A DNA stretch of 64,000 bases from NCBI GenBank assembly GCA_041661265.1, contig JBAZUT010000002.1, forward strand, positions 140,316 to 204,315. Direction: 5' to 3'. Source of the stretch: Minisyncoccota bacterium. Lineage in GTDB: Bacteria > Patescibacteriota > Minisyncoccia > JAHIHE01 > JAGLIN01. The notes beneath the pieces were generated by a model. It saw nothing but the letters and a program-made list of their open reading frames with translations. It had not been told where the DNA came from and made no database searches. The position numbers and the translations under genes were made by a program. Numbering within the stretch: the first letter of the stretch is position 1; every line of letters begins with the position of its first letter. Below, piece after piece: positions 31,742 through 62,340 of this stretch.

Positions 31742-34700
31742 TTATGGAGTTGTCTCGTCCCACTTGAGGGTACTTAGAACGGGTACTGTATTGGAATCAG
31801 TATATATAGGGGAGTTGTTCACAGCTCTTACTCTATAGAATGCAAATCCCGGAAGCGGATCATTATCCATGCATATCCTGTTATCGGAATCAACCGGGAA
31901 ATCCGCGACATTCAGGCATATGACTTCTGCCGAACTGAAATCCGAATTATCATCCCTGTAGACCGTATATACCGGCGGTCCGCCTTTTACAGAATACTCT
32001 GCCGCAGACCAATCCAACCTTACCCTATTCGGAAGATTTTCATAATCAAGCATAAAGTCTCCCGGAGGAGCGATCGGAACATAAACGGGAGATATGATAT
32101 TTGAACTCGTCGTGCCTGCCGCATTCACTGCCCTGATCTGATATTCATAGGTCGTATCCTCCTGGGCTGTCAGATCATTGAATGTAACAAAACCTGTTGG
32201 AGGAGGATCCTCATAATCGGTTCCCGAGACCATCGAATCCAAAGGCGTTGAATAGGCTGCCGTCGCTTTATTGATGAACAGGCCGAACAGGTCATCCATC
32301 TTTTCGCCCATGCCCACATAAGCAAACTCCGAATCACCCTGGAGCCTTCTGAATATCTCATATGAAGTTTCATTCTGCGTATCGCTCCATTTGATCTCAA
32401 CATTACCGCCCGCACTCAAGGTGTAGCTTGCGGAAACAAGAGAAAGGAATGGCGGATAAAAAGGCGGAATATTCAGACAATCGCAAGATGTTGTCTGCAA
32501 GCTGGGATCCGATTCCACCGAATTATCAACGCCCGAGCCCACAGCTTCCACTTTATATACATAATTCTCCACACTGTTTATATTGCCGTCAATATAGGTT
32601 CTGGCCAGATACGGCATATTCTCCCTGATCTTGCTGAAATTTGTTTCGCCTGCCGACACATTCTTTCTCAAAATATTATACGAGAAGGTCTTGCTTTCGT
32701 CATAGGGCGCCCAATTGATCTGCATACGCGATGAAGAACCCGCGCATATCGGCAACACGGTGTTATCGGTATTGCCCGGCAAAGCTCCGCCGCATACATA
32801 TCCGGAATCCCTGCTGATCACGGGTTTTGCGGGAACATCAAAGCACTCCATGGCAATGGCTGTCTTTTCTTCGGAAAATGCGACGCTGCTGCTTCCATGC
32901 GCCTCAATATAATAATCATAGCTGGCGCTGCTTTCAACATTCAGGTCGATATATGAAGTCAAAGTTGTCCCCGGACAATTAATACATGTATATGCCGCAA
33001 ACGGCTCGCTGGTGCGCTTTTTATATATGGTCCAATAGGATGTGTTCGGATCCGGCAGCCACGAAAGCGCTATCTGCGTTCCCGAAACATCACAACCCGG
33101 AGTCAGGATCAGATTCGCCTGAACCGGCGAACAATCCGGCGCAATAATGGAAACTTCATTCGACATAGCGCTCTCATTTCCGATCCCCATCGCCTTCACC
33201 GCATATTTATAGTTTTTATTCGATTCCAGAGGAAGAGAACTTAGTATATTCGGAGAATCAGACTGTCTTTCGGGACCATTGATCAATGTTCCGTCGGAAC
33301 CATTCCCGGAATTGTCATATGCCGCTACTCCCGCTTTTTCATCAAAATGCCAGACACCGGCCAGGCCAAGTTCGTTTTTATAGATAGCATTATATTGCTC
33401 CGCAATTTCTATTCCACTTAAACTTCTTCCGTAGATGCGGACCTCGTCGATCGATCCGTCAAAAAGCTCATGCCACTGCGGTGACCCGCCCTGGCGCGCG
33501 CCGATCGTTACCGGCGCATCGCTCAATATCGTATTGCTTAATGAATTTTCATCGATTGTAACACCAAGAGAGATCCCGTCTTCATATATCCTTACGCCAC
33601 TTGCCAGACTGGAACCGTCATAAGTGATCACGTAATGGTGCCAACCGCCATCATTCAGCATGCTTGGCGATGTAGTGCTCACCGTGATAGCGTTTGAAGA
33701 CCAAGTATTGACCATCATGAAAGATATGGTTCCAGCCCTCACCTGCGAGGTTGGAAAATAGTAATTCGTTATCAGATGCCATCCTCTATACGGACTGTAA
33801 TCCGACGCCTTTGTGATCACTTCCTGAATTCCGGTACTTGATGCATCCGGCTTAAGCCAAGCTGTGATCGAAAATGCTCGATCTCGCTCAAAATCAAAGT
33901 TTGATTCATTCGCGATTGCCGCATAATCATCCGATCCATCAAACTGCAGGCTCCTCGACCCGCCATCGGTTATTGGCGACCTGACGGAAAAATAGACGGA
34001 TTGCAGAGAATCTGAGACATTATTTCGATATAAATTATAAGAATAAGCATTAGCACTTGCCGTCCAGGACAGATCCGCATATGGCACGTTCAGATCGCAA
34101 TAAGTACTGCCGAGAGCCAGAGTAGAAACGTCAGGAACTCCGCAGAACAATGTCGTCACCGACCTCGAGCTCGAAAAGGATGTGAGGGCGGTGGGCCCTA
34201 TTGCTTTTATCCAATAGTAATATGTCCAAAGATCCTGAAGTCCCGCCGAACTGTCCGTCCATGCCCTGGAATTGAATTCAGCAAGATCGGAAGGAATGGT
34301 TTTGTCCAAAGCCTTAACTAGCAATGCCGAACCCATGTTATCGATCGTATTGCGATATATCTCATATTTTTGGGTGCCGGAAGGAAAATCATCCGACCAC
34401 GAGATCATATTATAGGGATCATTTGTACTGCAATTGGAGTAAATTGGGTCAATAACCGGCGTGAAAGGAACGCAATAATTGCCGATGCCGATCAAGGCAA
34501 CATTGGAACCTGCTCCCTCACCTGCGTCATTTTCCGCTTTGACGACATAGGAATAGGCAGTGTTGACCGCTATACCCATATCATCATAGGAATTTGTCGT
34601 TCTGCTCGTCAGATAGGATCCATCTCGATAAATGTTATAAGAAGTGGCGTTTGGAACATTGTCCCACCCGAGAGCCGCATAGGGGTTCGAGCCAGAACAT

Positions 34701-39694: not shown

Positions 39695-39712
39695 ATGGTT
39701 CTTTCGAAAATA

Positions 39713-40213
39713 TTATAAAGAAGATTTTACTACTATTTTAGCTGCCAAAAAATCGTCCGCTTTGCTTATATCGGAACTGGAAATAGCCTCGATATAATCC
39801 CCCGGTTTCAAATCGCTAAGCCGTATATTTTTTTCTACGGGAGTGCGATTGACAAAAGTCAGACTGCTCACCTTGGTTTGAGGATTCACGATCGCCTTTC
39901 TTTCTTCCTCGCGGACCGTACGCACACCCTCTTCATCGACATTGTACATCTCGGCATTGAAAACAATCGTATTGCCGTCGATTTTCGTTATTTTACCGGA
40001 AAGATTATAGATAATTTTCGGAACGATAATCCTTTCCTGCTCCGGTATCGGCTTTATGTCCGATCTTTCAACTACCGGTTCCTCGGTTGTTCCGCCCTCT
40101 TTTTGACGCAATCCCAAACCTATTGCGACCGCCACAACCAAAACCATCAATACGATGATCAAAATGTTCTTCGGGACAATGGGCGGAGTTGCCGCATTTT
40201 CTGTTGAATCCAT
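39713..40213 (-). CDS. small single-pass membrane protein (166 aa)
   Basis: Short N-terminal tail, TM helix ILIIVLMVLVVAVAIGLGL and an extracytoplasmic charged domain. Confidence 0.5.
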   Translation of the reverse strand: MDSTENAATPPIVPKNILIIVLMVLVVAVAIGLGLRQKEGGTTEEPVVERSDIKPIPEQERIIVPKIIYNLSGKITKIDGNTIVFNAEMYNVDEEGVRTVREEERKAIVNPQTKVSSLTFVNRTPVEKNIRLSDLKPGDYIEAISSSDISKADDFLAAKIVVKSSL

Positions 40214-40254: not shown

Positions 40255-40692
40255 TTATGGAGAATAACTCAGTTCGATCGCCCTGTTCACATTGCGATAG
40301 CTTCCTCTGACCTTTATCACGTTTCCTATCACAACGATCCTATAAGAGCCATCCCCGACGGTTACCACTTCATTGTTAGGCGGAGTGTCCGCATCAGTAC
40401 AATCATTATCATTTATGCATTTGGCAAGATAATCCATGCTCTGATATGCTCCATAAGTGGCGGTTAGGGGACTGCTGATCTGAAGCTTAAGTTCATAAAG
40501 AAATCTTTCGACGCCGGTGTCCGCCAGATAAAATGACTCAACGGAATTTTGCGCATCTATCAATGCCCTCCTTTCCCCCACTCCCCTGTTCATTGTATAT
40601 AGGCCTAAATAAAGCAAAAAAGCGCTAATGGAAACAGCCACGAACAAAGCCACTTGTCCCTTTCTATTCAAATTTATCTTTTTGGTTGGCAT
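40255..40692 (-). CDS. pilin-like or minor pseudopilin-like protein with a non-canonical N-terminus
   Basis: N-terminal region NRKGQVALFVAVSISAFLLYLGL has a Gly followed by a hydrophobic helix, with no Glu at +5. Lies inside the pilin gene array. Confidence 0.35.
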   Translation of the reverse strand: MPTKKINLNRKGQVALFVAVSISAFLLYLGLYTMNRGVGERRALIDAQNSVESFYLADTGVERFLYELKLQISSPLTATYGAYQSMDYLAKCINDNDCTDADTPPNNEVVTVGDGSYRIVVIGNVIKVRGSYRNVNRAIELSYSP

Positions 40693-40725: not shown

Positions 40726-41283
40726 TTAATAAACCCTAGGAACAACGGATGTCTGCAATTTAATCGTGACGCTGGGATCCCTCGAACTTTCCAGTTCAAG
40801 CAGAATGGTAATGATCGGCTGTTCCGCCGGAGATGCAACCAGATCGCCATTTGAATAAAAATGCAAATTGGTCACTTTTATATTCGGAGAGCTTATTGGG
40901 ACAAAACTCCCGTCATAACCCACCGAAACAGCGACAGCGCTCGCACCGCTCGCGCAAACCCCGGACGAATCCGCCTGGCAATAGACCGCACTCTTGCTTT
41001 CGTGATTGGTGAAATTTATCCTTGGCCCAGGATTCGGAGTTCCGCTGTCATCGTAATTCCTTATTCGCATATCATCGATCTTATTCGCCATCCTGATCTC
41101 CCGGCCCATTCTTTCCAAAAGAAAACTTGCTTCATTATTGACCAGATTCATCTCGCTTGCGCGCGCCTGAGACTTTATTCCGCTTATGAAAAGCCCCATC
41201 GTAAAAACTATGACAAGCGAAAACAGCCCGAGTGCCACCATGGTTTCAAGAAGCGTCATTCCTTTTTGGTCAAGTTCATGCAT
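40726..41283 (-). CDS. type IV pilin / pseudopilin-like protein (class III signal peptide)
   Basis: Prepilin-peptidase motif KG-MTLLETMVALGLFSLVIV (G at -1, E at +5). The start was moved to the internal Met to avoid overlap with the upstream pilin. Confidence 0.7.
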   Translation of the reverse strand: MHELDQKGMTLLETMVALGLFSLVIVFTMGLFISGIKSQARASEMNLVNNEASFLLERMGREIRMANKIDDMRIRNYDDSGTPNPGPRINFTNHESKSAVYCQADSSGVCASGASAVAVSVGYDGSFVPISSPNIKVTNLHFYSNGDLVASPAEQPIITILLELESSRDPSVTIKLQTSVVPRVY

Positions 41284-41293
41284 CTGGGTTAAT

Positions 41294-41845
41294 TTATCTG
41301 AGATCATTAAGATATGACGTCAATGAATACAGTTCTTTTCCGCCTCGTTCCACTTTTACCGTTGCCTTCATGACGCCTACAGCAGGATAGCTTATATTAA
41401 CATACCGCTGAAAACCCGAATTATGCCATTCGCCGGACGACGTAATTTCCGTATCATATTCACACTGAATATATCCATTGATTTCTTTGGTCAATACCTG
41501 CATGCTTTGCGCGGTTTTATCCTTCAACTCAAACCCGTCCGTTATCTTTGCATTCTTGCACTGCCCATAGTTACTGGAATTTATCACCACAATGACCTTG
41601 TCTCCCTCCAAGAGCGCATCTGTGAGCGGAAAGTTAGCGTCATCGTCCCTTATCTTTCTCATTATTTCCATCCCATCCTGTGCAAGATAAACAGCATTAA
41701 GCCTTGCTTCAATATCTATTTCGTCTCTCAGTGATGACGTAAGTATGTTCACGATTGGTATGACACTGATCATGATCACCGAAATGCTTACCGCGATCTC
41801 CAGCAATCCGAATCCTTTTTTGTTTTTTATTATTTTTCCGATCAT
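41294..41845 (-). CDS. type IV pilin / pseudopilin-like protein
   Basis: Prepilin motif KKGFGLLEIAVSISVIMISV. Confidence 0.7.
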   Translation of the reverse strand: MIGKIIKNKKGFGLLEIAVSISVIMISVIPIVNILTSSLRDEIDIEARLNAVYLAQDGMEIMRKIRDDDANFPLTDALLEGDKVIVVINSSNYGQCKNAKITDGFELKDKTAQSMQVLTKEINGYIQCEYDTEITSSGEWHNSGFQRYVNISYPAVGVMKATVKVERGGKELYSLTSYLNDLR

Positions 41846-41849
41846 TGAT

Positions 41850-42431
41850 TTATTTTATCTGGCCCTGAGAATTAACCGTAACGGTCCTGCAGAACGTCGG
41901 ACAGCCTTCGGGACTTCTCAATATTTTGACCTCCAGGGTTGCCCCGCTGCCCTGCAGTGTTCCATTAAATGTCATATTCACCTTCCCGTAAGGCGGCCCA
42001 AACAGAATATCCGCATTCGGAAGATCAGAGACACCGTTCAGAGTTTCGATCGTAACACTTGGAGAAAGAACTATTGTTTCGACGATCTGGTCTTCGCCGG
42101 AAACATAAGCCTTGTTCAATACTGATGGAGAATTAAGAAATATGATATAGCCGGCGCCATCCCTTTCGAAATGGATCCCGTATCCGCCGGATATGTCATA
42201 ATCCTCGAATTTCTTTATATTTATCGAATAATTTTGAACTCTTCTTATGTCATCCGAAATCTTTTGGATCGCGAACTGCATCTCCTTGGTTTTTTTCTGG
42301 GAATTATAGTTATTCATGACCACAACCGACATTATCGAAATTATGACGATAACAAGCATCATCTCCAGCAACGTAAAACCATTCGAATTCCTCAGGGTAA
42401 ACTCTTTTTTGTTTAATTTCGGATCTGACAT
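41850..42431 (-). CDS. type IV pilin / pseudopilin (GFTLLE class III signal)
   Basis: Canonical NGFTLLEMMLVIVIISIMSV N-terminus. Confidence 0.75.
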   Translation of the reverse strand: MSDPKLNKKEFTLRNSNGFTLLEMMLVIVIISIMSVVVMNNYNSQKKTKEMQFAIQKISDDIRRVQNYSINIKKFEDYDISGGYGIHFERDGAGYIIFLNSPSVLNKAYVSGEDQIVETIVLSPSVTIETLNGVSDLPNADILFGPPYGKVNMTFNGTLQGSGATLEVKILRSPEGCPTFCRTVTVNSQGQIK

Positions 42432-51564: not shown

Positions 51565-51858
51565 TTATTTTGTCGCGCCATCAGCCGGGGCCGGATCCTG
51601 CTTCAGACAGCTGACACTTATCAGCTGGACCTGCTCTTTGTCATTGTAAATGGAGAATGGATCGCATTTTTCGTTTTTAGCCTGGGAGATCGCCGCATTT
51701 ATCATGTCGGTCTTGCCCTGCTGGTATCCCGATTGCAACGCAGCGCTCAACTGCTCTTTTTTGAAATCATCCCAAATATCTATAGCGACATATACAACAG
51801 AAAAAAGAATCCAAAAACTGACTGCGACCAAACTGACGGCTTTTTTGTCTATCTTCAT
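51565..51858 (-). CDS. small single-pass membrane protein (97 aa)
   Basis: TM helix AVSLVAVSFWILFSVVYVAI. Confidence 0.45.
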   Translation of the reverse strand: MKIDKKAVSLVAVSFWILFSVVYVAIDIWDDFKKEQLSAALQSGYQQGKTDMINAAISQAKNEKCDPFSIYNDKEQVQLISVSCLKQDPAPADGATK

Positions 51859-52098: not shown

Positions 52099-53493
52099 TT
52101 AATTTATAGCATTGCATGTACAAGATCCCGTTGCATCCGGCTGAGTCGAGCAGTACCCTATTGTCTTATCGGCTCTCCAGCAAAGAGCTTTGTTCGCTTG
52201 TGCGGCGCCGCTTCCGATGCTTACATTTCCCCTGACATCCAATTTTGCATTCGGACTATTCGTTCCAATCCCGACATTAACGTTTCCGCCACCCGTATAC
52301 CTGTTAACTACTCCCCATCCGAGGGTATTATTCCAATCTGCTTCATTTTGCGCACTGACTCCCAAATAACTTCCGGTTCCTCCGCCAAATCTCCAATTTA
52401 TATCCCCGACATCAGAGTCGATAAAGTTTATTTCCGGACTTCCATCTTGGACAAGAACTTCATCGCCCACAACGTCAAGTTTAGCTGCTGGCGTCGCCGT
52501 CCCGATGCCGACATTGCCATCACTCTTTATTGTCATTCTTTCTACAGGAGCAATCGTGCCATCCGGAGTCGTACTGAACACGAGTTTCACGGGAAGACTG
52601 GTCGCAGAAACTGTCCCGCTATCCATCACCGCTCCGAATCTTCCAAGCCTGCTAACATACCCATTTCCGTTATATGCTCCGAAGCCTATCCATCCCAGCT
52701 CGGTAGGATTTGGAAGGGTGTTGTTGACGATAGTCGGATTTTCGGGTGTTCCTCTGGATCTGAAAATATCAAAGTCGAATTTATCGCTATACCCATCAGA
52801 TGAACTGGTTGCATTCATATCCATATTCTTCCCAGACATGGCAATAAGGCTGTCATCGGAGCCAGTTATATATGGCGTTTTTGTTCCAAAATCTCCCAAC
52901 ATCAGATTTCCCTTGCTGGAAACTGCAAATCTGTTCGCTCCCGCGCTGTTTGAAAAATTTACGATTGATGATTCATATGTGAAAGCCGTACCAGCCGGAA
53001 GAGCCGGACTGAATACTTCAGACTCAATTGACGTATCGCTTACGATCCTTTTGATTATTTTCGTCTGGCCTGCTGCTGTTATTCTTGATCCCACTCCGAT
53101 CTCATCTAAAAATTTCGTACCAACACCGGTTATGACGCCAGCCCCGGAAATCGTACCCGTGCCAACCTTGCCGGCTGCACCCCTTATGCTCAACGTTGAG
53201 GCTGGTGTTGTCGTTCCGATCCCGACATTGCCTTCATCGACCCTGACATTTCCCTTATTGACTATCAGGCCGTTCGGAGCGCCATTAACATTCAGGGTAA
53301 GACCGCCCAATTTAACCTGTCCGGTCGCCCCGATATTCAGTGGCAGATCAACATTATTCCCCGGCGCGGGCGCCGTCGGCTCCGTCCAATTCGCAGCCAG
53401 AACCACATAGCTCAAGGAAACACTGAACACCAAAGCGCTGGCCAGAAATGCAGCCGTCTTTGCATTTTTAGAAAACATTTTTGTCTTTATCAT
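52099..53493 (-). CDS. Gly-rich fibre-like surface protein (464 aa), paralogue of the 865-aa protein
   Basis: Contains WTEPTAPAPGNNVDLPLNIGATGQVKLGGLTLNVNGAPNGLIVNKGNVRVDEGNVGIGTTTPASTLSIRG, then further DGNVGIGTATPAAKLDV and NVNVGIGTNSPNAKLDV repeats, and a Cys-rich C-terminus. Confidence 0.75.
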   Translation of the reverse strand: MIKTKMFSKNAKTAAFLASALVFSVSLSYVVLAANWTEPTAPAPGNNVDLPLNIGATGQVKLGGLTLNVNGAPNGLIVNKGNVRVDEGNVGIGTTTPASTLSIRGAAGKVGTGTISGAGVITGVGTKFLDEIGVGSRITAAGQTKIIKRIVSDTSIESEVFSPALPAGTAFTYESSIVNFSNSAGANRFAVSSKGNLMLGDFGTKTPYITGSDDSLIAMSGKNMDMNATSSSDGYSDKFDFDIFRSRGTPENPTIVNNTLPNPTELGWIGFGAYNGNGYVSRLGRFGAVMDSGTVSATSLPVKLVFSTTPDGTIAPVERMTIKSDGNVGIGTATPAAKLDVVGDEVLVQDGSPEINFIDSDVGDINWRFGGGTGSYLGVSAQNEADWNNTLGWGVVNRYTGGGNVNVGIGTNSPNAKLDVRGNVSIGSGAAQANKALCWRADKTIGYCSTQPDATGSCTCNAIN

Positions 53494-53518: not shown

Positions 53519-53860
53519 TTATTTCTGAGCAGATGTTGTAGAATCTATTAACTCTTGTATTTTTCTCTCCCTTTCTTTGGAACTTAATTCCGTTTCATTC
53601 GGATCCGGAACCTTCTCCGGAGCAGTCACTGAGTCGATCAGCTCCTTCGGAATCTCCTTTTTGATTCCATCGTCCGGCGCATTCACAGTTTTCATCATTT
53701 CCTCTAGCGGATCTGCCTCCTTCTCCGGAACTGCTTTCGGAATTCTTCCTATGTATCCGCCAACATACAGTATAATGAGCACCAGAGCAACAACGAAAAA
53801 TACTATTGCGTTAAGCAGATATTCGTTGTCTTTCCTTTTCGGCAGCTTCCTCGGTTTCAT
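53519..53860 (-). CDS. small single-pass membrane protein (~113 aa from MKPRKLPKRK)
   Basis: The listed ORF (to 53965) overlaps the 3' end of the giant gene. The internal start at 53860 lies 23 nt past the giant's stop. TM helix LLNAIVFFVVALVLIILYVGGYI. Confidence 0.55.
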   Translation of the reverse strand: MKPRKLPKRKDNEYLLNAIVFFVVALVLIILYVGGYIGRIPKAVPEKEADPLEEMMKTVNAPDDGIKKEIPKELIDSVTAPEKVPDPNETELSSKERERKIQELIDSTTSAQK

Positions 53861-53883
53861 GTTTTTTTTTAATATATTAATTT

Positions 53884-56800
53884 CTATGGCGCAGCTTCGT
53901 TCCATTTCGGCCTCTCGCTCATGACATCTATGGGCTGCAGAGTGAATCTTTCGCTCGCATAGCAACTATATACCTGAGCGGAAGAATCGGTTACTTTCAG
54001 GTCCACCGCAAAGGTTCCCTGATCTGCGTAATTGTGGACTACATTATAACCCAAAGCCGGTCCGGGGTCGGAGAAGGTGTCAATGTCATTCGGCGTCCCA
54101 TCTCCAAAGATCCATTCCATTTCTTTTATATAATATCCGGCCGCAACCGAAGTCGGCTCCGCAAGCGGATTTCCGGAAACATCATTAAAAGGATCGAGTG
54201 TCACGTCCATGAATTGCAGGATGTCCGTATCCGGAGAGTATGAAAAATTAGCGACAGGATAAGAATGGTCCGGGGTCGCAATAGGACTATTCGGATCCGA
54301 ACTGTTATAAGGGAACTTCACCCCCGGAGTCACTGCGCTTGCATTATCCTCACTGTCATAAACAGTAACATTCCATGAATATGTAAAATTTCCATAATCT
54401 ATAAACCCGGGACAGAAGCCGTTGATATCATTACCCGTCAAAGTGTTTATGAAATCAAATTGTTTTCCCGTCGAACACACGGCCAGGTCGCTCCTCTCAA
54501 CGTCAACCCGATATGCACTCTGAGACGTTCCTGCCGCGTCATCTTCCACGTCAGTGAAGACCCACGAGATCCTTTCCGCCCACGGATCCTGCCTGCAAGG
54601 ATCGATCGAGGTCGCGTTTGCATTCGTAACGGACGGGTTAAACGTTCCGACGCTGACGCAATAATCAGCTCCGTTGCAAAAACTGATCCAGCCTGTCACG
54701 TCGCCTCCCCACGCCCAGCCGTTGAAATTTCCGCCACTCAGGATAACTTTGTAATTGCCCGAATTAACCGGAATCGTCAGATTATCAATGCCGCCGCAAG
54801 CCACGTCAAGAAACTCATTATTATCCGTATCGCAATCATCGGCCAATATGATGCCATCGCCTCCGCAGCTTACATCAAGTCTCCCGTTATTATCCGTATC
54901 GCAATTATTTATATTTCCTTTCAAATTGATCCACCCGTCCCAGTCACCGGTTTCCCAAGGATTTTTAAGCGCGCCCGAACAGTCTGCACTAAACACCGAA
55001 CAAGCCCTCGCCCAGCCGATAAAATCACCTGCGCCATCAAGACTTGCCTGGCAGGCTCCCGACGGACAGCCGGAAATATCGCCAAAATCAGGATCTCCCG
55101 AAACTCCATAACCGAAAGTTATCCACCCGATATTCTCACTCCATGCATAACCCGACAGAATTCCGCCTGAGTCCAGATTTACTCCATAAGATTTGACTGC
55201 GCCATTGGTCTGGCAGCCTGGAGGCGCGGGAGTTGAACCGACAGGAACCCCTTCGCTGTTTCCTTCATATATCCCATCCTTGTCAACATCGCAATTCTTG
55301 CTGTTGAAGCTTATCCAGCCTGCAGTCGAGCTCCACGCAAAACCCATAACATTTGAATTTTGAGCTTCGCACCCGGGCTTTGAAGGATCCGTCGTAATAT
55401 TCGGTCCGTCCGTTACCGCGCTCGAAAGAACATCCGTCTCATCCCAAACAGTGAGATCCCAATACAAAGTTTTTCCATATGCAGCCGCTCCAAAATCCGC
55501 ATCATAGGTTGTGCTCGATGATAATACAATTCCCGTATTCAAAATATTATTCGTCTTTCCTGCATCATCATACACCCTGATCCGGTATGATTTTTGCGCA
55601 AATTGCGGAGTCGTATTGGATTGATATGTCCAGGAAAGATCATATCTGTTGTCGCTTGTGCAATTATTTATCGGACCCGCAACACTAAGACCGGACACCG
55701 TTGGCGGGACACATTGAAAAACGGTTCCCTGCTGACCATTGTCGCCCCCATTGATTCCCGTACCGCCATTAACATTAAAGCTGCCTCCGTAAGTATTAGA
55801 ATTAGAACAATTCACAATCCTTCCGCCACCGCCGCCGCCATTGCCATTTATATTTCCTCCATTGCCGCCATTTGAAGTGATAAGACCGGAAGCCAAACCG
55901 GTTAGATTATTTGAAATCAAGAAAATCGATCCTCCGGCGCCTCCCCCTCTCGGGCCAACCGCACTTAAACCGGAAGCGTCAATTATTCCGCTGTTGGTAA
56001 GACTATTTGTGATCATTATTTTGATCATTCCGCCGCCAGTGCCACTGGCAGGAGCTCCGGCACCCGCGAAAGCCGAGCCGCCATCGCCTCCGATTCCGCC
56101 ATATCCGCCTCCTCTATTGTTCTGGAAACTACCCGTTTGTCCTCCCGAACCCAGATCATTCGGATTAGTGAGAGATCCATACGTATTGCCTCCGGTGTTT
56201 CCCGAACCGGGTCCTTCGTCGGCAGAATAACCCTTTCCAATCGCATCAATTTTGCCTCCGGCAATTATAGTAAGATTATTAAGATTCAAATCGATATAAT
56301 TAACCTTGGCATTTGTGTTCGCAATATGACTCAGCGTTCCAGCGATGGTTAAATTCCTTAAATTTGGAAAATTCGTCGTAGTTGGCGAGAAAGTATTCAC
56401 GGTAAAGTTGCCGTTAAGCGTCATATCCGTGAAACCCAGGCTTATTGCATTGAGATTCCCGGTATTGGTTCCAATACCGTTTATGTTTATCACATCCGCG
56501 CCATTAACCGTAAACAGACTGTTATTATCCAGCACGCCGACAGATGTAAGATTCGTGACGCCATTTGCGGTAAAAGTTCCATTATTGGTTATACCCCAGA
56601 AAGACCATGCCCCCGTATTTAAAGCTGTGATATTTACACCCGGATTGATCTTGAAATGCCCTCCATTTGTGATCGTGAGATAATCAATGTTCATATTGGC
56701 ACCGACAGGAGTCATTTCCCCGGCCACACCGTTATTTATCAGACTTAAATATCCGTTTGGATTTGCACCATCGTCTTTGTCTTTTGAATAAATAGTTCCC

Positions 56801-59800
56801 GCACCTCCATATACAGCCGAACCGGATGGCGCCCCGCCATAGGCTATCGCCGATCCTAAATAAGATTTTGCATTGTAGCGATATGAGATCCTTCCGCCGC
56901 CGCCGCCGCCATTATTATTTGTATTGCCGCCATTCCCGCCGCTTGCGATCATTGAGCCCGTAGCTGCTCCTCCAAAATTATTCGTATCGACATATATTGT
57001 TCCGCCCGATCCTCCCGCCCTCGTTCCCGTAGCATTGCTTCCCGAGACATTGATCGTACCATTAAGCATGAGAGTGTTCCCGATCGTCAATTTAACCAAT
57101 CCGCCGCCCGTGCCGCCGCCCGCCGGCGCTCCGGCTCCGGCCCAAGCCGAACCTCCATCGCCTCCGATACCTCCGAATCCGCCTCCCCTATTATTCTGGA
57201 AACTTCCTGATTTACCGCCGGAACCCAAGTCATTCGGATCGGTAATCGATCCATATGCATTGCCTCCGGTGTTTCCTGAACCCGCACCCTGATCTGCCGC
57301 GTAACCTTTGCCAGCCGCATCGATCTTTCCTCCTGCATTAACTGTCAGATTATCAAGAGTCAGATCAATATAATTGACGGGAGTATTATTATTTGCAAGA
57401 TGACCCAAAGTTCCGTTCACGGTCATATTTACAAGTGAAGCAAAACTAGTTGTTGTCGGCGAGAAAGTATTGACGATAAGCGTACCGTCAATTGTAAGAT
57501 TGGGAACATTATTAGCTATTAAATTCCCATTATTAGTGACAGTTGCGGTATTGTTTATCGTTAAGTTGTTTATATTCCGAACATCGAAATAGCTGTTATT
57601 ATTAAGAACGCCGGTTACAGTCAGACTCGCCACACCCAATGCCGAGAAATTCCCGTTATTGGTTATGCTCGAGAAAGACCATACGCCGGTGTTGTAAGCG
57701 TCCAAATTAACGCCGGAATTTATGCTGAGATGGGCGCCATTCGCAACCGTTAGAATATCAATCAGCATGCTGTTCTCGAGTGGCGTGATCTCTCCGGAAA
57801 ATCCATTATTATCGAGAGTCAGATAACCGTTCGGGTTCAGGGCGTCTGATTTATTCTTTGAATACACCGTGCCGGCTCCGCCATATGTAGCCGCGCCTGT
57901 TCGCGCTCCGCCAAAAGCAACGGCAGTTCCTGTATATGTTTTTGAATTAAAGTAGTATGCGATCCTTCCGCCTCCGCCTCCGCCATTGTCATTGGATGCG
58001 CCCGCTGACCCGCCATTTGCGATCATCGAACCCGTTGCGGCGCCTGCCAGATTGTTCACATCGACATATATCGATCCGCCCGATCCACCGGCTCTTGTTC
58101 CGGTAGAATTAACTGCCGAAGCATTTATCGAGCCATCCAAGGTCAGAATGTTGCTGATAGTCAATTTTACCGAACCGCCGCCGGCCCCACCGGTCGCAGG
58201 CGCTCCGCAGCATCCCCCGGTACCCGCCCCTCCTTTTCCGCCATAGCCCGCGCCTCTTCTTCCGGCAAATGCCCCTGATTCTCCGCCGGAACCCATTTCA
58301 TTGGGATTAGTGATAGATCCATAAGTATTACCCCCTAAATTCCCCGAACCGGCGCCCTGGTCTGCAGCATATCCCCTGCCGACTGCGTTTAGTACGCCCG
58401 TAGCGGCAATATTTCCGCTGGTCGCAATTATTTCAACCTTGCCATAATTCGTTCCGTCATAAGCTTTGACATAAACCGTCCTGCCGGCGGGTATGCTGAA
58501 ATTATTGATATTGCAATGCGTTCCCGCTATGTCTATTATTCCGGCAGTCGCATTCAAATCCCAAGCATCTCCGTCCGTCGGAGTCCAATTTGCCCCACCA
58601 TGATCGATCCCGGCGCATGGAGCGACGGGAACAGCGCTCGCCTCATCCGATTGAGGACCTTCGCCTATGATATTCGAAGCTGAAACTTTATAGTAATAAG
58701 TAGTGCCATTAACCAGTCCCGTATCCGTGCATGTGAGCACATTTCCAAGGCTTGAACAGCCACCTGCTATTAATAAAGAATAAGAACCATTAGTGGGACT
58801 ACTTCGATACACTTTGTAATTGGTAATAGGTGAACCGCCATCAGCCGGAGCGGTCCAAGACAAAACTACCTGAGCATTCCCAGCTGCAGCCGCTAAGCCA
58901 GTTACTTTATCGGGAGATGATATAACGCAACGGATAGAATTCGCGTCTACTTTAGACCAACTATCGGGGTCTCCTCCTTTTGGAACACCAGAATAAAGAT
59001 ATCTTAGAAATGCATCGCTTGCATTAATCTGAGTCGACGACCAAAGATGCGTATCAGCACCAATATCCCAAAAATTATTAAAAGAATAGCTACCACTCCA
59101 AAGCGCCTCGAATCCCGCTTGACCGCCCTGGTCAAGTTCTGCTTCAGCATCTGAATATCCATAGAAACCTATCACATAATTTCTTAAGATATCGAACTCT
59201 GATTGCTGAGGAATATGCCATCCGGCGGGACAGAGCCCCTGAACAGGCTGAGTTATGAATGCGGAACAGTCGCCTGTCCTGCACGAATTAGGCACCCGTA
59301 AAGCTTCCGTCCACTGATATAAACCGCCATACATATTGCAATTATTATTTCCGGTTGCGATCTGTCCGGCATTTCCATCTGTCATATAGCCATAGCAATA
59401 TTTTTCAACAATTCCATTATCGGTCTGATCTTGATAGGTTACGTTATCATCCAGCTTTCGGCTGATCATCTTTCCCAAAGTAAGGTTTTCTTTTGTCCAG
59501 CATTGATTTCCTATCTTAACGGTGTTATAGATATTGCCTTCGACATCCGCAGCTGAAGGAAACGGCGGACAAGCATTGGTAAGGGCAGCAAGGATCGTCG
59601 TCGGAGCCGATAACATTGAAGCACCGTTTACGGTTCCATCATTGGGAATGACTTCAACCGTGATCACATTTCCGGCGACATAATTCGCGGAAGTTAAAGT
59701 TGAAGCCGTTGCTCCGGCAATATCCACACCTCCCTTTTTCCATTGATAAGCATAGGTTATCGGGTCCCCATCGGCGTCCGTGGCGGAAACAAGCGCCGCC

Positions 59801-62340
59801 AAATTCGGCGTGCTGGCATATGCAGGACTCGGGGTTATGGTTACCAAAGTCATGACAGGAGATGCGTTCGACGAACCTGAACATGCTGCTAAAGGATTGG
59901 ATTCATTGCAATCCTCTCCCACAAAATCGCGAGTGCCATTGTTTATTCCAAGCTGATTCCAGCACGATCCCCCTGTTGACTTGCATGAACAATTTGAAAG
60001 CGTCGCACCGGTCACTCTCAGGGTCCCGCCCGCACCGGTTGCGCTGGTTCCCGGAAGATCAAAAAATCCCGATCCCATCCAGTCTATGAGACCTCCGTTC
60101 TTCGCCTCAAGAACAGTTGAAGAGCAGTTGGGAGCATAATAAGTGTCAAGTCCGGTCATATCGATCGTCCCGCCATTTTGTCCGCAAACTCCGAAATTTT
60201 CGCACGAATTGGCATGTATCCCGCCCTTGAAATAACCCGAACCAGTTATACTGACATTTCCCGCTTTTCTTGAGCTTGATGTTGAGATCAGACTGCCGGA
60301 ACCCTCAACGCCGATGCTTCCGCTGCCGGTCAGATTCACAACGCCTCCGTTCACGCCGGCAATATTCGTGTTCCCGGTTTTGATCAACGACGATCCGCTT
60401 AATACTGTGTCATTTGAAAAAGTTATATTGACATTGCCGCCTGTTTTTGCCGGCCCGCCTGCCGCATTGCTCCCCTCGGTATAGATCTTCAAATTCGATC
60501 CTCCCGGAAAAATCGAGGCCCCACCCGCCCCGGTAACATCCAAATTTCCGCCGTTTCCAGTCAAAGTGTCCGGAACACTGAGGTCAACAATAAGCCCTCC
60601 GTTCGGATAGAAGATATCTCCGCCGGTCATATTGATATTTCTGGCGTTCGTGCTTGATGTTGCTTTTCCGTCTATCAGAACTTCAGTGTTCGCTCCGACA
60701 AACTTGTTTCTGAAATCGATATCCGTTCCCGTCAGGTCAAGATCGCTCGACAGGATTATTCTCAGAGGATTTGGCGTGTTCGCATTGACATCAATACTGA
60801 CGCCTGTATGCGAACCTCCAAGATAGCATGGATTTTGGGTTATCGTGCAATTTCCAGAAACTGGACAGCACTGAGACGCCGTGACCATAAATGAATATTT
60901 TCCCACTGCGGGACTCAAGCTGATATTTCCGGCTCCATCAGTCGCTTCCGATTGATATTCGATCACATCGCCCGGAGTAAGCGGACCGTTTATCGCAAGT
61001 TGATGCAAACCTCCCGTAGCCCAGGTGCTCACAGGCTGAAGGACTCCGTTTATCCAATATCTTATCTTGTGATCAACGATTATGCCTGAATCATCCGAGG
61101 CTGTTGAATAGATCGTCACTTTTTCAGTGGGTTGATCGATATCCGCATAATTGACAACTCCCCCATCAGCAACCTGAACACCCAAAGAATCCGGCCTCCA
61201 TGCAGCTGTCGTCAAAGTTGGATTTATCGTGTCGGGAATCCCGCTGATTATACTGAATTTGCTCGTGCCTTCAGAAGAAACATAAGAATATCCGCTTCTG
61301 AAAGAAAGACCGTAAGGCATATCTAGATTGGCAGAATCCTGTAAGAAATCCGCTATTACTGGATTATTAGCGTTAGAAATATTAACTAACGTTAAAGTAT
61401 CGGAATCATAAGCGGAAACATATGCCATGAAACCGAAAACCTTAACCCCTTTCGCACCATTCAGTCGATTATTGTCTTTAACAGAACCGACTATTACAGG
61501 ATTCGCAGGATCAGAAATGTTCACAATGGTCAATCTGTCTCCTTCAGGTGTCACAGGTCCCGTCCCACGTGATGTCACATAAGCGTAAGGACTGGCAATA
61601 TCAACTCCATATGCTGTATTCAGCTGCTCATCATCCCTCACGGATCCCACATAACTCATTGCAAGGGGATTGGAAATATCTATAATAGTCAATCGATTAC
61701 CTTCGGTCGGACAAGCACCATTTCCTCCTCTCGCCGTAACATATGCAAGACTGCCGACAATTTTCAAATCCCACGCTCCGCATAATTCATTATTTCTCTG
61801 AATTGATGATGCAACGGAAGGGTTTGCCGGATTTGAAATGTTCACTGCCGTTAATCGATTTTGATATCTCGCAGTTACATACGCATAATTTCCCGAAACA
61901 AAAACGCCCGTTGGAGTATCAAGATTTACTCCATCGGCTACAAAACCCGCAATAAATGGCACTGCAGGATTTGTAATATCTACAACACTTAATGTGTCGG
62001 CTGCGCGCGATACAACATATGCGTAATTTCCATATACATAAACACTGTATGCCTCGTTAAGCGTTACCCCATCACAGACCGATCCGACATAACTGGGAGC
62101 TGTCACAGTTGTAATGTCGAGAATTGTAAGACAATCAACAGAAGGTGCGGTCACATAAGCATAATTACCGGAAATTGTCGAATTCCATGCGCCGCTCATA
62201 TTCGGATGAGTGTATGAACCGACTATTCCGAGCGCTGCATCCGCCTTGCCGGCAGATAAACTTGAAATTAAAAATAAAACCAAAAAACACAAAAGGCTCG
62301 TGATCGTTTTTCTCACTTTTGAAATGTTTTTTAATTTCAT
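53884..62340 (-). CDS. giant secreted surface protein (~2818 aa): signal peptide, LVIVD-repeat beta-propeller, Fibrobacter-succinogenes-type paralogous domain, FN3, 3 x ~355-aa Gly/Asn-rich tandem repeats, GW-rich C-terminal region; C-terminal tail ...SERPKWNEAAP
   Basis: Start taken at the internal MKLKNISKVRKTITSLLCFLVLFLISSLSAGKADA; the listed ORF runs to 62430. LVIVD repeats (GNYAYVTA...LTIIDISNPANP). FISUMP-like block (GNQCWTKENL...GGLYQWTEAL...GLCPAGWHIPQQSEFDIL). An FN3 shared with the 1164-aa ORF. Three GKGYAADQGAGSGNTGGN... repeat units. Confidence 0.85.
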   Translation of the reverse strand: MKLKNISKVRKTITSLLCFLVLFLISSLSAGKADAALGIVGSYTHPNMSGAWNSTISGNYAYVTAPSVDCLTILDITTVTAPSYVGSVCDGVTLNEAYSVYVYGNYAYVVSRAADTLSVVDITNPAVPFIAGFVADGVNLDTPTGVFVSGNYAYVTARYQNRLTAVNISNPANPSVASSIQRNNELCGAWDLKIVGSLAYVTARGGNGACPTEGNRLTIIDISNPLAMSYVGSVRDDEQLNTAYGVDIASPYAYVTSRGTGPVTPEGDRLTIVNISDPANPVIVGSVKDNNRLNGAKGVKVFGFMAYVSAYDSDTLTLVNISNANNPVIADFLQDSANLDMPYGLSFRSGYSYVSSEGTSKFSIISGIPDTINPTLTTAAWRPDSLGVQVADGGVVNYADIDQPTEKVTIYSTASDDSGIIVDHKIRYWINGVLQPVSTWATGGLHQLAINGPLTPGDVIEYQSEATDGAGNISLSPAVGKYSFMVTASQCCPVSGNCTITQNPCYLGGSHTGVSIDVNANTPNPLRIILSSDLDLTGTDIDFRNKFVGANTEVLIDGKATSSTNARNINMTGGDIFYPNGGLIVDLSVPDTLTGNGGNLDVTGAGGASIFPGGSNLKIYTEGSNAAGGPAKTGGNVNITFSNDTVLSGSSLIKTGNTNIAGVNGGVVNLTGSGSIGVEGSGSLISTSSSRKAGNVSITGSGYFKGGIHANSCENFGVCGQNGGTIDMTGLDTYYAPNCSSTVLEAKNGGLIDWMGSGFFDLPGTSATGAGGTLRVTGATLSNCSCKSTGGSCWNQLGINNGTRDFVGEDCNESNPLAACSGSSNASPVMTLVTITPSPAYASTPNLAALVSATDADGDPITYAYQWKKGGVDIAGATASTLTSANYVAGNVITVEVIPNDGTVNGASMLSAPTTILAALTNACPPFPSAADVEGNIYNTVKIGNQCWTKENLTLGKMISRKLDDNVTYQDQTDNGIVEKYCYGYMTDGNAGQIATGNNNCNMYGGLYQWTEALRVPNSCRTGDCSAFITQPVQGLCPAGWHIPQQSEFDILRNYVIGFYGYSDAEAELDQGGQAGFEALWSGSYSFNNFWDIGADTHLWSSTQINASDAFLRYLYSGVPKGGDPDSWSKVDANSIRCVISSPDKVTGLAAAAGNAQVVLSWTAPADGGSPITNYKVYRSSPTNGSYSLLIAGGCSSLGNVLTCTDTGLVNGTTYYYKVSASNIIGEGPQSDEASAVPVAPCAGIDHGGANWTPTDGDAWDLNATAGIIDIAGTHCNINNFSIPAGRTVYVKAYDGTNYGKVEIIATSGNIAATGVLNAVGRGYAADQGAGSGNLGGNTYGSITNPNEMGSGGESGAFAGRRGAGYGGKGGAGTGGCCGAPATGGAGGGSVKLTISNILTLDGSINASAVNSTGTRAGGSGGSIYVDVNNLAGAATGSMIANGGSAGASNDNGGGGGGRIAYYFNSKTYTGTAVAFGGARTGAATYGGAGTVYSKNKSDALNPNGYLTLDNNGFSGEITPLENSMLIDILTVANGAHLSINSGVNLDAYNTGVWSFSSITNNGNFSALGVASLTVTGVLNNNSYFDVRNINNLTINNTATVTNNGNLIANNVPNLTIDGTLIVNTFSPTTTSFASLVNMTVNGTLGHLANNNTPVNYIDLTLDNLTVNAGGKIDAAGKGYAADQGAGSGNTGGNAYGSITDPNDLGSGGKSGSFQNNRGGGFGGIGGDGGSAWAGAGAPAGGGTGGGLVKLTIGNTLMLNGTINVSGSNATGTRAGGSGGTIYVDTNNFGGAATGSMIASGGNGGNTNNNGGGGGGRISYRYNAKSYLGSAIAYGGAPSGSAVYGGAGTIYSKDKDDGANPNGYLSLINNGVAGEMTPVGANMNIDYLTITNGGHFKINPGVNITALNTGAWSFWGITNNGTFTANGVTNLTSVGVLDNNSLFTVNGADVININGIGTNTGNLNAISLGFTDMTLNGNFTVNTFSPTTTNFPNLRNLTIAGTLSHIANTNAKVNYIDLNLNNLTIIAGGKIDAIGKGYSADEGPGSGNTGGNTYGSLTNPNDLGSGGQTGSFQNNRGGGYGGIGGDGGSAFAGAGAPASGTGGGMIKIMITNSLTNSGIIDASGLSAVGPRGGGAGGSIFLISNNLTGLASGLITSNGGNGGNINGNGGGGGGRIVNCSNSNTYGGSFNVNGGTGINGGDNGQQGTVFQCVPPTVSGLSVAGPINNCTSDNRYDLSWTYQSNTTPQFAQKSYRIRVYDDAGKTNNILNTGIVLSSSTTYDADFGAAAYGKTLYWDLTVWDETDVLSSAVTDGPNITTDPSKPGCEAQNSNVMGFAWSSTAGWISFNSKNCDVDKDGIYEGNSEGVPVGSTPAPPGCQTNGAVKSYGVNLDSGGILSGYAWSENIGWITFGYGVSGDPDFGDISGCPSGACQASLDGAGDFIGWARACSVFSADCSGALKNPWETGDWDGWINLKGNINNCDTDNNGRLDVSCGGDGIILADDCDTDNNEFLDVACGGIDNLTIPVNSGNYKVILSGGNFNGWAWGGDVTGWISFCNGADYCVSVGTFNPSVTNANATSIDPCRQDPWAERISWVFTDVEDDAAGTSQSAYRVDVERSDLAVCSTGKQFDFINTLTGNDINGFCPGFIDYGNFTYSWNVTVYDSEDNASAVTPGVKFPYNSSDPNSPIATPDHSYPVANFSYSPDTDILQFMDVTLDPFNDVSGNPLAEPTSVAAGYYIKEMEWIFGDGTPNDIDTFSDPGPALGYNVVHNYADQGTFAVDLKVTDSSAQVYSCYASERFTLQPIDVMSERPKWNEAAP
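55700..58400 (-). repeat. intragenic tandem repeat, 3 copies of ~1065 bp (~355 aa), inside the 2818-aa giant gene
   Basis: Nucleotide-level similarity between 56040..56300, 57090..57340 and 58150..58400. The protein units each begin G(K/R)GY(A/S)ADQGAGSGN and contain GGGFGGIGGDGGSA and GGGGGGRI(S/A/V) blocks. Boundaries are approximate. Confidence 0.7.

What the first reader, a model, noticed from the sequence alone, without database searches (positions are those of the whole stretch)
31742..62340. Shared extreme C-terminal tail K-W-(N/D)-E-(A/T)-(A/T)-P on all three giant proteins
The ~2818-aa ORF ends ...IDVMSERPKWNEAAP. The 1164-aa ORF ends ...VNIMSNKPKWNEAAP. The 2650-aa ORF ends ...STLKWDETTP. 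A conserved short C-terminal peptide on otherwise divergent giant secreted proteins looks like a sorting or anchoring signal, in the manner of LPXTG, PEP-CTERM or T9SS CTDs. This one matches no signal I know. Each giant is also flanked by a small single-pass membrane protein that could be the cognate receptor or anchor.
Basis: seen in the sequence. Interest (0 to 1): 0.7.

Follow-up and report, generated by a model that had tools for sequence, protein, structure and literature searches.

The report
Pilus-docking tail on giant adhesins
Three giant secreted proteins in a type IV pilus operon of an uncultivated ultrasmall (Patescibacteria) bacterium end in the same short peptide, a motif widespread in that group, and it most likely plugs each giant onto the tip of the pilus rather than acting as a cell-wall sorting signal.

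Summary
All three giants end in K-W-(N/D)-E-(A/T)-(A/T)-P followed directly by the stop codon. The codons differ and the C-terminal domains are divergent or unrelated.

The tail is one form of a wider Patescibacteria motif, P-x-[WFY]-x-E-[IVTF]-(x-P). In an unbiased metagenome scan, 63 of 71 in-ORF occurrences lay within three codons of the stop. The 33 complete carriers examined have hydrophobic, signal-like N-termini.

It is not a sortase, PEP-CTERM or T9SS-type signal. No hydrophobic anchor follows the motif and no Pfam or NCBIfam model matches.

The carriers sit in type IV pilus loci, next to a set of four minor pilins. The fourth pilin is short and lacks Glu5, as PilK/GspK does. A separate Patescibacteria family of GspK/ComZ-like minor pilins (about 490 aa) carries the same W-x-E-Φ at its own C-terminus in 120 of 120 members. 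AlphaFold2 predicts that stretch as a terminal β-strand.

This parallels the 2026 finding that the last ~10 residues of PilC/PilY1 tip adhesins complete the PilK β-sheet in trans. My best explanation (confidence about 0.5) is a trans-donated tip-docking strand that mounts interchangeable giant adhesins on the pilus. No complex was modelled or tested.

The parts
53884..62340 (-). Giant A. 2818 aa from the called start (2848 aa from the upstream ATG at 62430). Signal-like hydrophobic N-terminus, then LVIVD repeats, a Fib_succ_major domain, FN3, long Gly-rich beta-helix-like repeats, GWISF repeats, an Ig (Rha78A_N-like) domain, PKD, and the tail.
53887..53910 (-). Tail of giant A, P-K-W-N-E-A-A-P. 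The stop codon lies at 53884..53886.
47988..51482 (-). Giant B, 1164 aa. Signal-like hydrophobic N-terminus, then FN3, DUF2341, LamG, GWISF repeats, Ig, PKD, and the tail.
   Evidence: AF2 model
47991..48014 (-). Tail of giant B, P-K-W-N-E-A-A-P, with codons differing from giant A at 5 synonymous sites. In the AlphaFold2 model it is coil with pLDDT about 57-73.
31742..39694 (-). Giant C, 2650 aa. Signal-like hydrophobic N-terminus, many FN3/Ig-like domains and two LamG domains. It has no GWISF and no PKD domain. It is the last gene of the operon and lies directly after the four minor pilins plus one small membrane protein.
31745..31768 (-). Tail of giant C, L-K-W-D-E-T-T-P.
40255..40692 (-). 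Minor pilin-like protein, 145 aa, lacking Glu5 (..RKG|QVALF..). It is the PilK/PilX/GspK-position subunit and the proposed acceptor of the tail strand.
40726..42431 (-). Three minor (pseudo)pilins with the N-methylation motif and Glu5: 41850..42431, 41294..41845 and 40726..41307.
42442..43650 (-). PilC/GspF-type platform protein (T2SSF domains).
39713..40213 (-). Single-pass membrane protein of 166 aa, between the Glu5-less pilin and giant C. Function unknown.
47651..47968 (-).
53519..53905 (-). Small single-pass membrane protein, 128 aa, same repeat type, downstream of giant A.
45025..47622 (-). 'AWT' protein, 865 aa. Signal anchor, then W-S-P-A-P..P-L-N, then GNVGIGT repeats. This family is the neighbour most tightly linked to GWISF-domain proteins, and its presence tracks GWISF rather than the tail.
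52099..53493 (-). Second 'AWT' protein, 464 aa.
31702..31730 (-). GC hairpin (CATCCCCGCAC..GTGCGGGGATG) followed by a T-run, right after giant C's stop. It is read by eye as the likely operon terminator; the automated terminator scan did not list it.
   Evidence: read by eye; not listed

Best explanation
The K-W-(N/D)-E-x-x-P tail is the local form of a Patescibacteria-wide C-terminal peptide, P-x-[WFY]-x-E-[IVTF]-(x-P). I propose that it works as a trans-donated β-strand that docks large Sec-exported adhesins onto the type IV pilus tip complex.

Proposed steps:
1. Each giant is exported by Sec. Shown: the N-termini are hydrophobic and signal-like. No signal-peptide predictor was run.
2. Its flexible extreme C-terminus inserts as an extra strand into the small β-sheet of the Glu5-less minor pilin (145 aa, 40255..40692) while that pilin is still membrane-anchored. 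Inferred.
3. The adhesin-pilin pair is joined by the other three minor pilins to form the priming complex. The growing pilus then pushes that complex out, leaving the adhesin at the tip. Inferred by analogy with PilC/PilY1-PilK.

Because all three giants carry the same tail variant, they would be alternative, interchangeable tip adhesins competing for one acceptor.
For: 1. Generality and position. 88 of 120 homologues of the C-terminal module carry P-x-W-x-E-[IVTA]-x-P in the last 45 aa. In 75 of them at most 3 residues follow the motif. W, E and P of the tail are among only 26 invariant columns in a 34-sequence alignment with 29% mean identity.

2. Unbiased scan. A metagenome DNA scan for P-[LF]-P-x-W-K-E-[IVM]-x-P, with no stop codon required, gave 71 hits inside ORFs of at least 100 aa. 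63 were 0-3 codons from the stop and 6 were followed by a 13-27 aa extension, 4 of which look like the amphipathic-helix form. Among likely chance hits only 9 of 41 were that close to a stop.

3. Carriers. All 33 complete carriers have hydrophobic, signal-like N-termini. 16 of them lack the GWISF domain.

4. Independence from the preceding domain. The motif follows PKD domains, FN3-like domains (giant C; L035), '..PCP.LP.W.E' ends, and other Ig-like domains as the truncated form P-x-[FY]-x-E-[FI] at the very C-terminus. 123 of 128 unrelated PKD-rich giants lack it.

5. Synteny. Carriers lie beside an ordered set of pseudopilin genes in 15, 14, 12 and 5 loci at gene distances 1, 2, 3 and 4. The fourth lacks Glu5. 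PilM/N/O-like genes and the prepilin peptidase are also nearby. In the window the order is PilC, three N-methyl pilins, the Glu5-less pilin, a 166-aa protein, then giant C. This matches pilVWX-pilY1 and mshDOP-mshQ (PMC13533445).

6. Pilin linkage tracks the tail. A Glu5 pilin lies within 5 genes for 12 of 57 GWISF carriers and 6 of 27 non-GWISF carriers, against 4 of 37 tail-less GWISF proteins. AWT linkage tracks GWISF instead, at 17/57, 0/27 and 5/37 for the same three groups.

8. Published mechanism. The last ~10 residues of PilC/PilY1, and in models MshQ, complete the PilK sheet in trans. GspK, ComGG and CpaL supply the same strand in cis (PMC13533445; PMC13190605).

9. Complementarity. 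All 10 loci with the short Glu5-less pilin have full-tail carriers. The 2 loci with the cis-type pilin have only degenerate GWISF ends. No locus has both.

10. Within-locus concordance between non-homologous ends. Giant C shares the W[ND]E[AT][AT]P variant of its locus mates, a variant seen in 6 of 95 carriers. The two L035 carriers share an unusual W-K-E-[AT]-[KR] end.

11. In the AlphaFold2 model of giant B's C-terminus alone, the tail is coil with pLDDT 57-73, as expected for a peptide that folds on a partner.
Against: No adhesin-pilin complex was modelled or tested, so the acceptor is inferred.

The giants have no PilY1 β-propeller. The tail has no sequence similarity to E. coli GspK's terminal strand..IYRRTLQLY.

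Prolines flank the motif, leaving only about 5-6 residues to form a strand.

I could not see which sheet the cis strand pairs with in the AlphaFold2 model, because only secondary structure and pLDDT are returned.

The profile match between the short Glu5-less pilins and the cis family covers only the N-terminal helix (hhalign probability 51%).

Many loci are too short to show pilins, so the adjacency counts are small. GWISF genes also occur near cis-type operons (L041, L069).

The 17-29 aa amphipathic extension found in about 12% of carriers is not explained by the model. Three or more adhesins per single acceptor remains unproven.
Confidence: 0.5

Rival explanations
1. The tail is a cleaved sorting or ligation signal of a new kind. 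An unknown protease or transpeptidase recognises P-x-W-x-E and cuts after the invariant Glu or the next residue. The protein is then released or covalently attached to the wall, the S-layer or the pilus, and whatever follows the motif is a leaving group.
For: The motif always sits at the end, but the distance from the invariant Glu to the C-terminus varies: 1 residue (..FEEF..YGEF), 3-6 residues (..WKEIxPF), or about 20-33 residues. Variable length is typical of leaving groups.

About 12% of carriers keep a C-terminal amphipathic helix that could hold a precursor at the membrane.

The carriers examined have signal-like N-termini.
Against: Most carriers have no membrane-retention segment at all, and the extension is amphipathic rather than a transmembrane helix plus basic cluster.

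No sortase, exosortase, rhombosortase or other protease family recurs among neighbours within 4 genes of 92 carrier loci.

No NCBIfam or Pfam signal model is hit.

The same motif ends a minor pilin-like protein, where AlphaFold2 predicts it as a structural strand.
Confidence: 0.12
2. The tail is a non-covalent docking peptide for a receptor that is not the pilus. Candidates are the flanking small Pro/Glu-rich membrane proteins, the AWT fibre-like proteins, the S-layer, or peptidoglycan.
For: The motif is Pro-flanked, aromatic and acidic, and it is predicted to be flexible, as short linear motifs usually are.

Small single-pass membrane proteins are modestly enriched next to carriers: 37% at gene distance 1 against 25% at distance 7 or more.

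AWT proteins are the neighbour most tightly linked to GWISF carriers.
Against: The repeat-bearing small membrane family appears in only about 5 of 93 carrier loci (6 proteins, two of them in the window) and at variable distance.

AWT adjacency follows the GWISF domain and is 0 of 27 for tail-bearing proteins that lack GWISF. Giant C has no adjacent AWT gene.

This reading does not explain why Glu5-less minor pilins carry the motif in cis.
Confidence: 0.2
3. The tail is only a structural end-cap of the C-terminal Ig/PKD stalk module, inherited with that module, with no interaction in trans.
For: Every non-GWISF carrier inspected from the metagenome scan (13 sequences printed) shares the same Ig (Rha78A_N-like) + PKD + tail module. 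A large part of the motif's spread could therefore be module inheritance.
Against: The tail also follows non-PKD ends (giant C; L035 and L027 '..PCP.LP.W.E'; the FEEF-type ends) and a pilin-like family.

It is coil with low to moderate confidence in the model of the module.

It is far more conserved than the domain before it.

PKD-rich proteins in general lack it.
Confidence: 0.1

Closest known systems
C-terminal β-strand (Cβ) of the PilC/PilY1 type IV pilus tip adhesins, which adds in trans to the PilK/PilX minor pilin (Ellison et al. 2026, PMC13533445; also modelled for Myxococcus PilY1-PilX, PMC13190605)
   Same: Both are large Sec-exported non-pilin adhesins (PilC/PilY1 relatives reach up to 3500 aa) encoded beside a four-gene minor pilin set whose apical member lacks Glu5. 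In both, the function resides in the last ~10 residues. Several paralogous adhesins can share one machine.
   Different: The window's giants have no PilY1 β-propeller domain. The host is a Patescibacteria bacterium. The tail is a sequence-defined, Pro-flanked motif (W-x-E-Φ). Three giants sit in one operon. The interaction here is inferred, not shown.
MshQ of the Vibrio cholerae MSHA pilus, a non-PilY1 large protein downstream of mshDOP that is modelled to donate a C-terminal strand to MshP (PMC13533445)
   Same: A large protein that is not a PilY1 homologue lies immediately downstream of the PilIJK-type minor pilins. Giant C has exactly this position.
   Different: There is no sequence relationship. 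The MshQ case is itself only modelled.
Terminal strand supplied in cis by GspK / ComGG / CpaL / ComZ-type apical minor pilins (PDB 3CI0, 5VTM, 6QVI)
   Different: That family is not encoded in the window, where the Glu5-less pilin is short (145 aa). E. coli GspK's terminal strand has no W-x-E.
Tripartite C-terminal sorting signals: LPXTG/sortase, PEP-CTERM/exosortase, PGF-CTERM/archaeosortase, GlyGly-CTERM/rhombosortase
   Same: Both are short conserved motifs at the C-terminus of secreted surface proteins with otherwise unrelated sequences.
   Different: Here no transmembrane helix or basic cluster follows the motif, and 0-3 residues follow it in most carriers. No cognate enzyme gene is linked, and no model is hit.
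T9SS C-terminal domains (type A and type B CTDs)
   Same: Both are C-terminal tags shared by diverse giant secreted proteins.
   Different: A T9SS CTD is a folded domain of about 80-100 aa. Here the conserved tag is about 8-10 residues, and the giants hit no CTD model.

Membership tests
PilC/PilY1 family tip adhesins | C-terminal PilY1/PilC β-propeller domain (Pfam PF05567) | tested here: not met
   A Pfam scan of all three giants at E<=0.01 lists LamG, FN3, PKD, LVIVD, DUF2341, Fib_succ_major and Ig_Rha78A_N, but no PilY1 domain.
PilC/PilY1 family tip adhesins | Encoded with the core minor pilins (FimU/PilV/W/X = PilH/I/J/K), the last of which lacks Glu5 | tested here: met
   The window has three N_methyl pilins plus a Glu5-less 145-aa pilin directly upstream of giant C. 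The same ordered set lies next to carriers in other loci.
PilC/PilY1 family tip adhesins | The extreme C-terminal ~10 residues add a β-strand to the PilK-type pilin | not testable with these tools
   No multimer prediction is available. Indirect support only: the same motif forms a predicted terminal strand in cis in a GspK-like family.
PilC/PilY1 family tip adhesins | Sec-type (not prepilin) signal peptide | tested here: inconclusive
   The N-termini have a basic stretch, a hydrophobic stretch and Ala-rich ends (..TSFASTITQ..SAGKADAALG..YYAGAASAPAQ) and no G|FTLxE motif. No signal-peptide predictor was run.
Sortase / LPXTG-type cell-wall sorting signal | Motif followed by a hydrophobic transmembrane segment and a positively charged tail | tested here: not met
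   The stop codon follows the motif directly in the window. Across carriers, 75 of 88 have at most 3 residues after it. The rare extensions are amphipathic, with 2-7 charged residues.
Sortase / LPXTG-type cell-wall sorting signal | Linked or co-occurring sortase gene | tested here: not met
   No sortase-like family appears among the recurrent neighbours within 4 genes of 92 carrier loci. Genome-wide co-occurrence was not tested.
PEP-CTERM / PGF-CTERM / GlyGly-CTERM (exosortase, archaeosortase, rhombosortase) signals | Match to the curated NCBIfam/TIGRFAM signal models and tripartite architecture | tested here: not met
   An NCBIfam scan of the three giants returns no C-terminal signal family, and there is no transmembrane helix.
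T9SS C-terminal domain | Folded CTD of about 80-100 aa (PF18962 / TIGR04183) | tested here: not met
   The three giants do not hit these models. The unit conserved across domain contexts is only about 8-10 residues.
GspK/PilK-type apical minor pilin (the proposed acceptor, 40255..40692) | Prepilin-like N-terminus without Glu5, encoded last in the minor pilin set | tested here: met
   The sequence reads ..NRKG|QVALFVAV.., and the gene is fourth after three Glu5 pilins. The family alignment is A4.
GspK/PilK-type apical minor pilin (the proposed acceptor, 40255..40692) | GspK-like fold of the head domain with an open sheet edge | not tested
hhalign against the cis family aligns only the N-terminal 66 columns (probability 51%).

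The most novel reading that the evidence does not exclude
The motif could be a new class of C-terminal processing or ligation signal that works without a membrane anchor. An unidentified enzyme would cut next to the invariant Glu and covalently join diverse giant adhesins, and the apical minor pilin itself, to the pilus or envelope. The 1-30 residues after the Glu would be the leaving group.
Probability: 0.1. Interest if true: 0.85.

Novelty: new variant of a known kind. Interest (0 to 1): 0.62.

Why it matters
Patescibacteria (CPR) are abundant, mostly uncultivated epibionts. How they recognise and attach to hosts is largely unknown, and type IV pili are among the few structures shown to matter for host binding (PMC11623550).

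If the W-x-E-Φ tail is the tip-docking strand, a simple C-terminal motif would let one list the pilus-tip adhesins of any CPR genome or metagenome. It would also explain why unrelated giant proteins cluster in pilus operons.

It would extend the newly described β-strand-addition mechanism to a deep bacterial lineage, and to adhesins that lack the PilY1 propeller. Finally, it would give a short, portable tag for experiments on adhesin swapping.

Tried and rejected
1. DNA or RNA repeat explanation. Rejected, because the two identical tails differ at 5 synonymous sites.

2. Tail-only profile search of the protein database. Not feasible. A DNA pattern scan of metagenomes replaced it.

3. Homologues of giant C's last 400 aa. 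Only three weak FN3 hits, which were uninformative.

4. Foldseek of giant B's C-terminal model against the PDB. Only generic tandem Ig/FN3 matches, with no insight into the GWISF domain.

5. Representative-library search with the module profile. PKD-repeat giants from everywhere swamped it (80,203 hits). It was useful only as a control showing that such proteins lack the tail.

6. PDB sequence search with the cis-family profile. No hits.

7. hhalign of the short Glu5-less pilins against the cis family. Only the N-terminal helix aligned, with probability 51%.

8. Sequence comparison with a known cis strand. E. coli K-12 GspK ends IYRRTLQLY, with no W-x-E. PilC/PilY1 tail sequences could not be obtained with these tools.

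9. The flanking Pro/Glu-rich small membrane proteins as receptor. The linkage is weak.

10. AWT proteins as receptor. Their adjacency follows the GWISF domain, not the tail.

11. Literature searches for a described CPR C-terminal signal. Nothing found.
Full report
**Observation.** Each is followed directly by a stop codon (DNA). The two PKWNEAAP tails differ at five synonymous codon positions and at no non-synonymous position, so this is protein-level conservation and not a DNA repeat. The 1164-aa and 2848-aa proteins share about 440 C-terminal residues at 37% identity, made of GWISF repeats, an Ig-like domain and a PKD domain. The last 400 residues of the 2650-aa protein are unrelated to either. 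From the window's amino-acid composition, the seven-residue pattern at a fixed position has probability 3e-9. No other ORF in the window ends with it.

**The tail is one form of a wider motif.** Homologues of the C-terminal module are abundant in Parcubacteria, Paceibacteria and other Patescibacteria. Of the 120 best, 88 carry P-x-[W>F,Y]-x-E-[I,V,T,A]-x-P in the last 45 residues. At most 3 residues follow the motif in 75 of these, and a 17-29-residue extension follows in 12. That extension is amphipathic and is not a transmembrane helix. Relatives that share only the GWISF part and have other last domains mostly end in a truncated form, P-x-[FY]-x-E-[FI] at the very C-terminus (FEEF, YGEF, FNEF, FREI). 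In a 34-sequence alignment with 29% mean identity, W, E and P of the tail are among only 26 invariant columns.

**Unbiased test of position.** I scanned JGI/ENA metagenome contigs for DNA encoding P-[LF]-P-x-W-K-E-[IVM]-x-P without requiring a stop codon. Of 71 matches inside ORFs of at least 100 aa, 63 lay 0-3 codons from the stop and 6 carried a 13-27-residue extension, 4 of which look like the amphipathic-helix form. Only 9 of 41 matches in short ORFs, which are likely chance hits, lay that close to a stop. All 33 complete carriers begin with a hydrophobic, signal-like N-terminus, and 16 have no GWISF repeats. The non-GWISF carriers I inspected share the Ig (Rha78A_N-like) + PKD + tail module, so part of the spread is module inheritance. 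The tail also follows FN3-like ends (giant C; L035 635 aa), '..PCP.LP.W.E' ends (L027, L036) and other Ig-like domains. By contrast, 123 of 128 PKD-rich giants from the general library lack it. It is therefore an autonomous terminal peptide and not a feature of PKD domains.

**What it is not.** Pfam and NCBIfam scans of the three giants hit no sorting-signal or CTD model. No transmembrane helix or basic cluster follows the motif. No sortase-like or other protease family recurs among genes within four positions of 92 carrier loci. In an AlphaFold2 model of giant B's last 443 residues, the tail is coil with pLDDT about 57-73, which suggests a flexible peptide.

**Genomic context.** The window region 31.7-64 kb is one minus-strand type IV pilus operon. 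Its order is: PilO-like gene; small membrane proteins; giant A; a 128-aa membrane protein; an AWT protein; a 97-aa membrane protein; giant B; a 105-aa membrane protein; an AWT protein; a 420-aa protein; PilC (T2SSF); three pilins with the N-methylation motif; a 145-aa pilin-like protein lacking Glu5 (..KG|QVALF..); a 166-aa membrane protein; giant C; then a hairpin with a T-run that I read as the terminator.

Across 80 genome loci and 120 metagenome loci, clustering of neighbours shows carriers next to:
- an ordered run of pseudopilin families in 15, 14, 12 and 5 loci at gene distances 1, 2, 3 and 4, the fourth lacking Glu5;
- PilM/N/O-like genes and the prepilin peptidase;
- the 'AWT' family, in 30 of 92 loci.

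AWT adjacency follows the GWISF domain: 17/57 for GWISF with tail, 5/37 for GWISF without tail, and 0/27 for non-GWISF with tail. Pilin adjacency follows the tail: 12/57 and 6/27, against 4/37.

**Link to known biology.** Ellison et al. 2026 (PMC13533445) showed that the last ~10-12 residues of the PilC/PilY1 tip adhesins add a β-strand in trans to the Glu5-less PilK/PilX minor pilin. They found that this is necessary and partly sufficient for pilus initiation and for keeping the adhesin at the tip. MshQ is modelled to do the same. GspK, ComGG, CpaL and the Thermus competence pilin supply that strand in cis, often after a large insert. Myxobacterial models agree (PMC13190605).

The Patescibacteria data reproduce this arrangement with one shared sequence motif. 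W-x-E-Φ occurs in cis on GspK/ComZ-like pilins, and in trans on large signal-bearing adhesins that sit beside a short Glu5-less pilin. The pattern is complementary. All 10 loci with the short pilin have full-tail carriers about four genes away. The 2 loci with the cis-type pilin have only degenerate GWISF ends. No locus has both. Non-homologous proteins in one locus share unusual tail variants: W[ND]E[AT][AT]P in the window, seen in 6 of 95 carriers, and W-K-E-[AT]-[KR] at the C-terminus in L035. That is expected if they must fit one acceptor.

**Best explanation and limits.** The tail most likely mounts the three giants as alternative adhesins on the pilus tip by β-strand addition to the 145-aa Glu5-less pilin (confidence about 0.5). 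What is shown: the motif, its positional bias, the signal-like N-termini of its carriers, the synteny, the cis counterpart, and that counterpart's GspK-like fold with a predicted terminal strand. What is inferred: the acceptor, the strand geometry, and tip localisation.

Points against:
- the giants have no PilY1 propeller;
- the tail has no sequence similarity to E. coli GspK's terminal strand;
- prolines limit the strand to about 5-6 residues;
- the pairing partner of the cis strand could not be inspected;
- the adjacency counts are small;
- the amphipathic extension found in about 12% of carriers is unexplained.

Rival explanations are a cleaved or ligated signal of a new kind (0.12), docking to a non-pilus receptor (0.2), and a purely structural cap (0.1).

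**Novelty.** I found no description of this motif in Pfam, NCBIfam or the searchable literature. The Saccharibacteria pilus study notes large PilX-type pilins without canonical signals, but no terminal motif. I rate the finding a new variant of a known kind: the PilC/PilY1 Cβ principle, in a deep lineage, on non-PilY1 giants, with a sequence-defined tag.

Noticed in passing
window 45025..47622 and 52099..53493 (minus strand); relatives in 30 of 92 carrier loci: The 'AWT' protein family has a signal anchor ending ..A-W-[TS]-x-P-x-x-x-P-P-x-x-N-x-x-x-P-[LI]-N, followed by many GNVGIGT-like repeats. It has no Pfam match apart from a weak AC_1 hit. It is the neighbour most tightly linked to GWISF-domain proteins: 6.6% of genes at distance 1-2 and none at distance 10 or more. 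Its role is unknown.
   Followed up: partly
window 47651..47968 and 53519..53905; also L006, L009, L013, L060: Small single-pass membrane proteins whose extracellular part is made of repeats of E-E-[IV]-L-x-S-L-T-A-P (in the window: KEILDSYG, KELIDSVTAP). They recur near pilus and adhesin genes in several Patescibacteria.
   Followed up: partly
window 51565..51858 (minus strand); L022 upstream gene: A 97-aa membrane protein with the conserved stretch ..FSVVY[VI]A.D.WDDFK.. lies just upstream of GWISF genes in two unrelated loci.
   Followed up: no
window 31400..31660: A GC-rich intergenic stretch of about 260 nt lies between tRNA-Asp and the operon end. It folds much better than shuffled controls (MFE -110.9 kcal/mol, z = -4.0). 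It has no Rfam match at gathering score, only a weak RT-11 hit (24 bits against a cutoff of 143). It may be an undescribed structured RNA.
   Followed up: partly
window 30732..31349 (plus strand): A cluster of tRNA-Met, tRNA-Met and tRNA-Asp converges on the end of the pilus operon.
   Followed up: yes
window 48900..49320 and 54900..55370 (minus-strand coding); alignment A1: The 'GWISF' repeat region ([GF]-[FY]-A-W-S-E-N-I-G-W-I-S-F-N, three to five copies with invariant Trp residues) has no Pfam model. The profile that includes it hits tens of thousands of cluster representatives, though PKD repeats inflate that count. Foldseek gave no informative match for it.
   Followed up: partly
P0027, P0028, P0034, P0043, P0047, P0069, P0084, P0089, P0094, P0116, P0117; L009, L012, L018, L022: About 12% of carriers extend the motif by a 17-29-residue amphipathic helix (for example ..WKEIPP-TSMISKFLANVGSVLKNYLKFLM). 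It might lie on the membrane or pack against the pilin helices. Neither the docking model nor the sorting model explains it.
   Followed up: partly
window 56000..59500 (giant A, roughly residues 1290-2250): Three long near-repeats rich in Gly/Asn (..GKGYAADQGAGSGN.GGN.YGS..GGGGGGRI..) suggest a beta-helix-like passenger region inside giant A.
   Followed up: no
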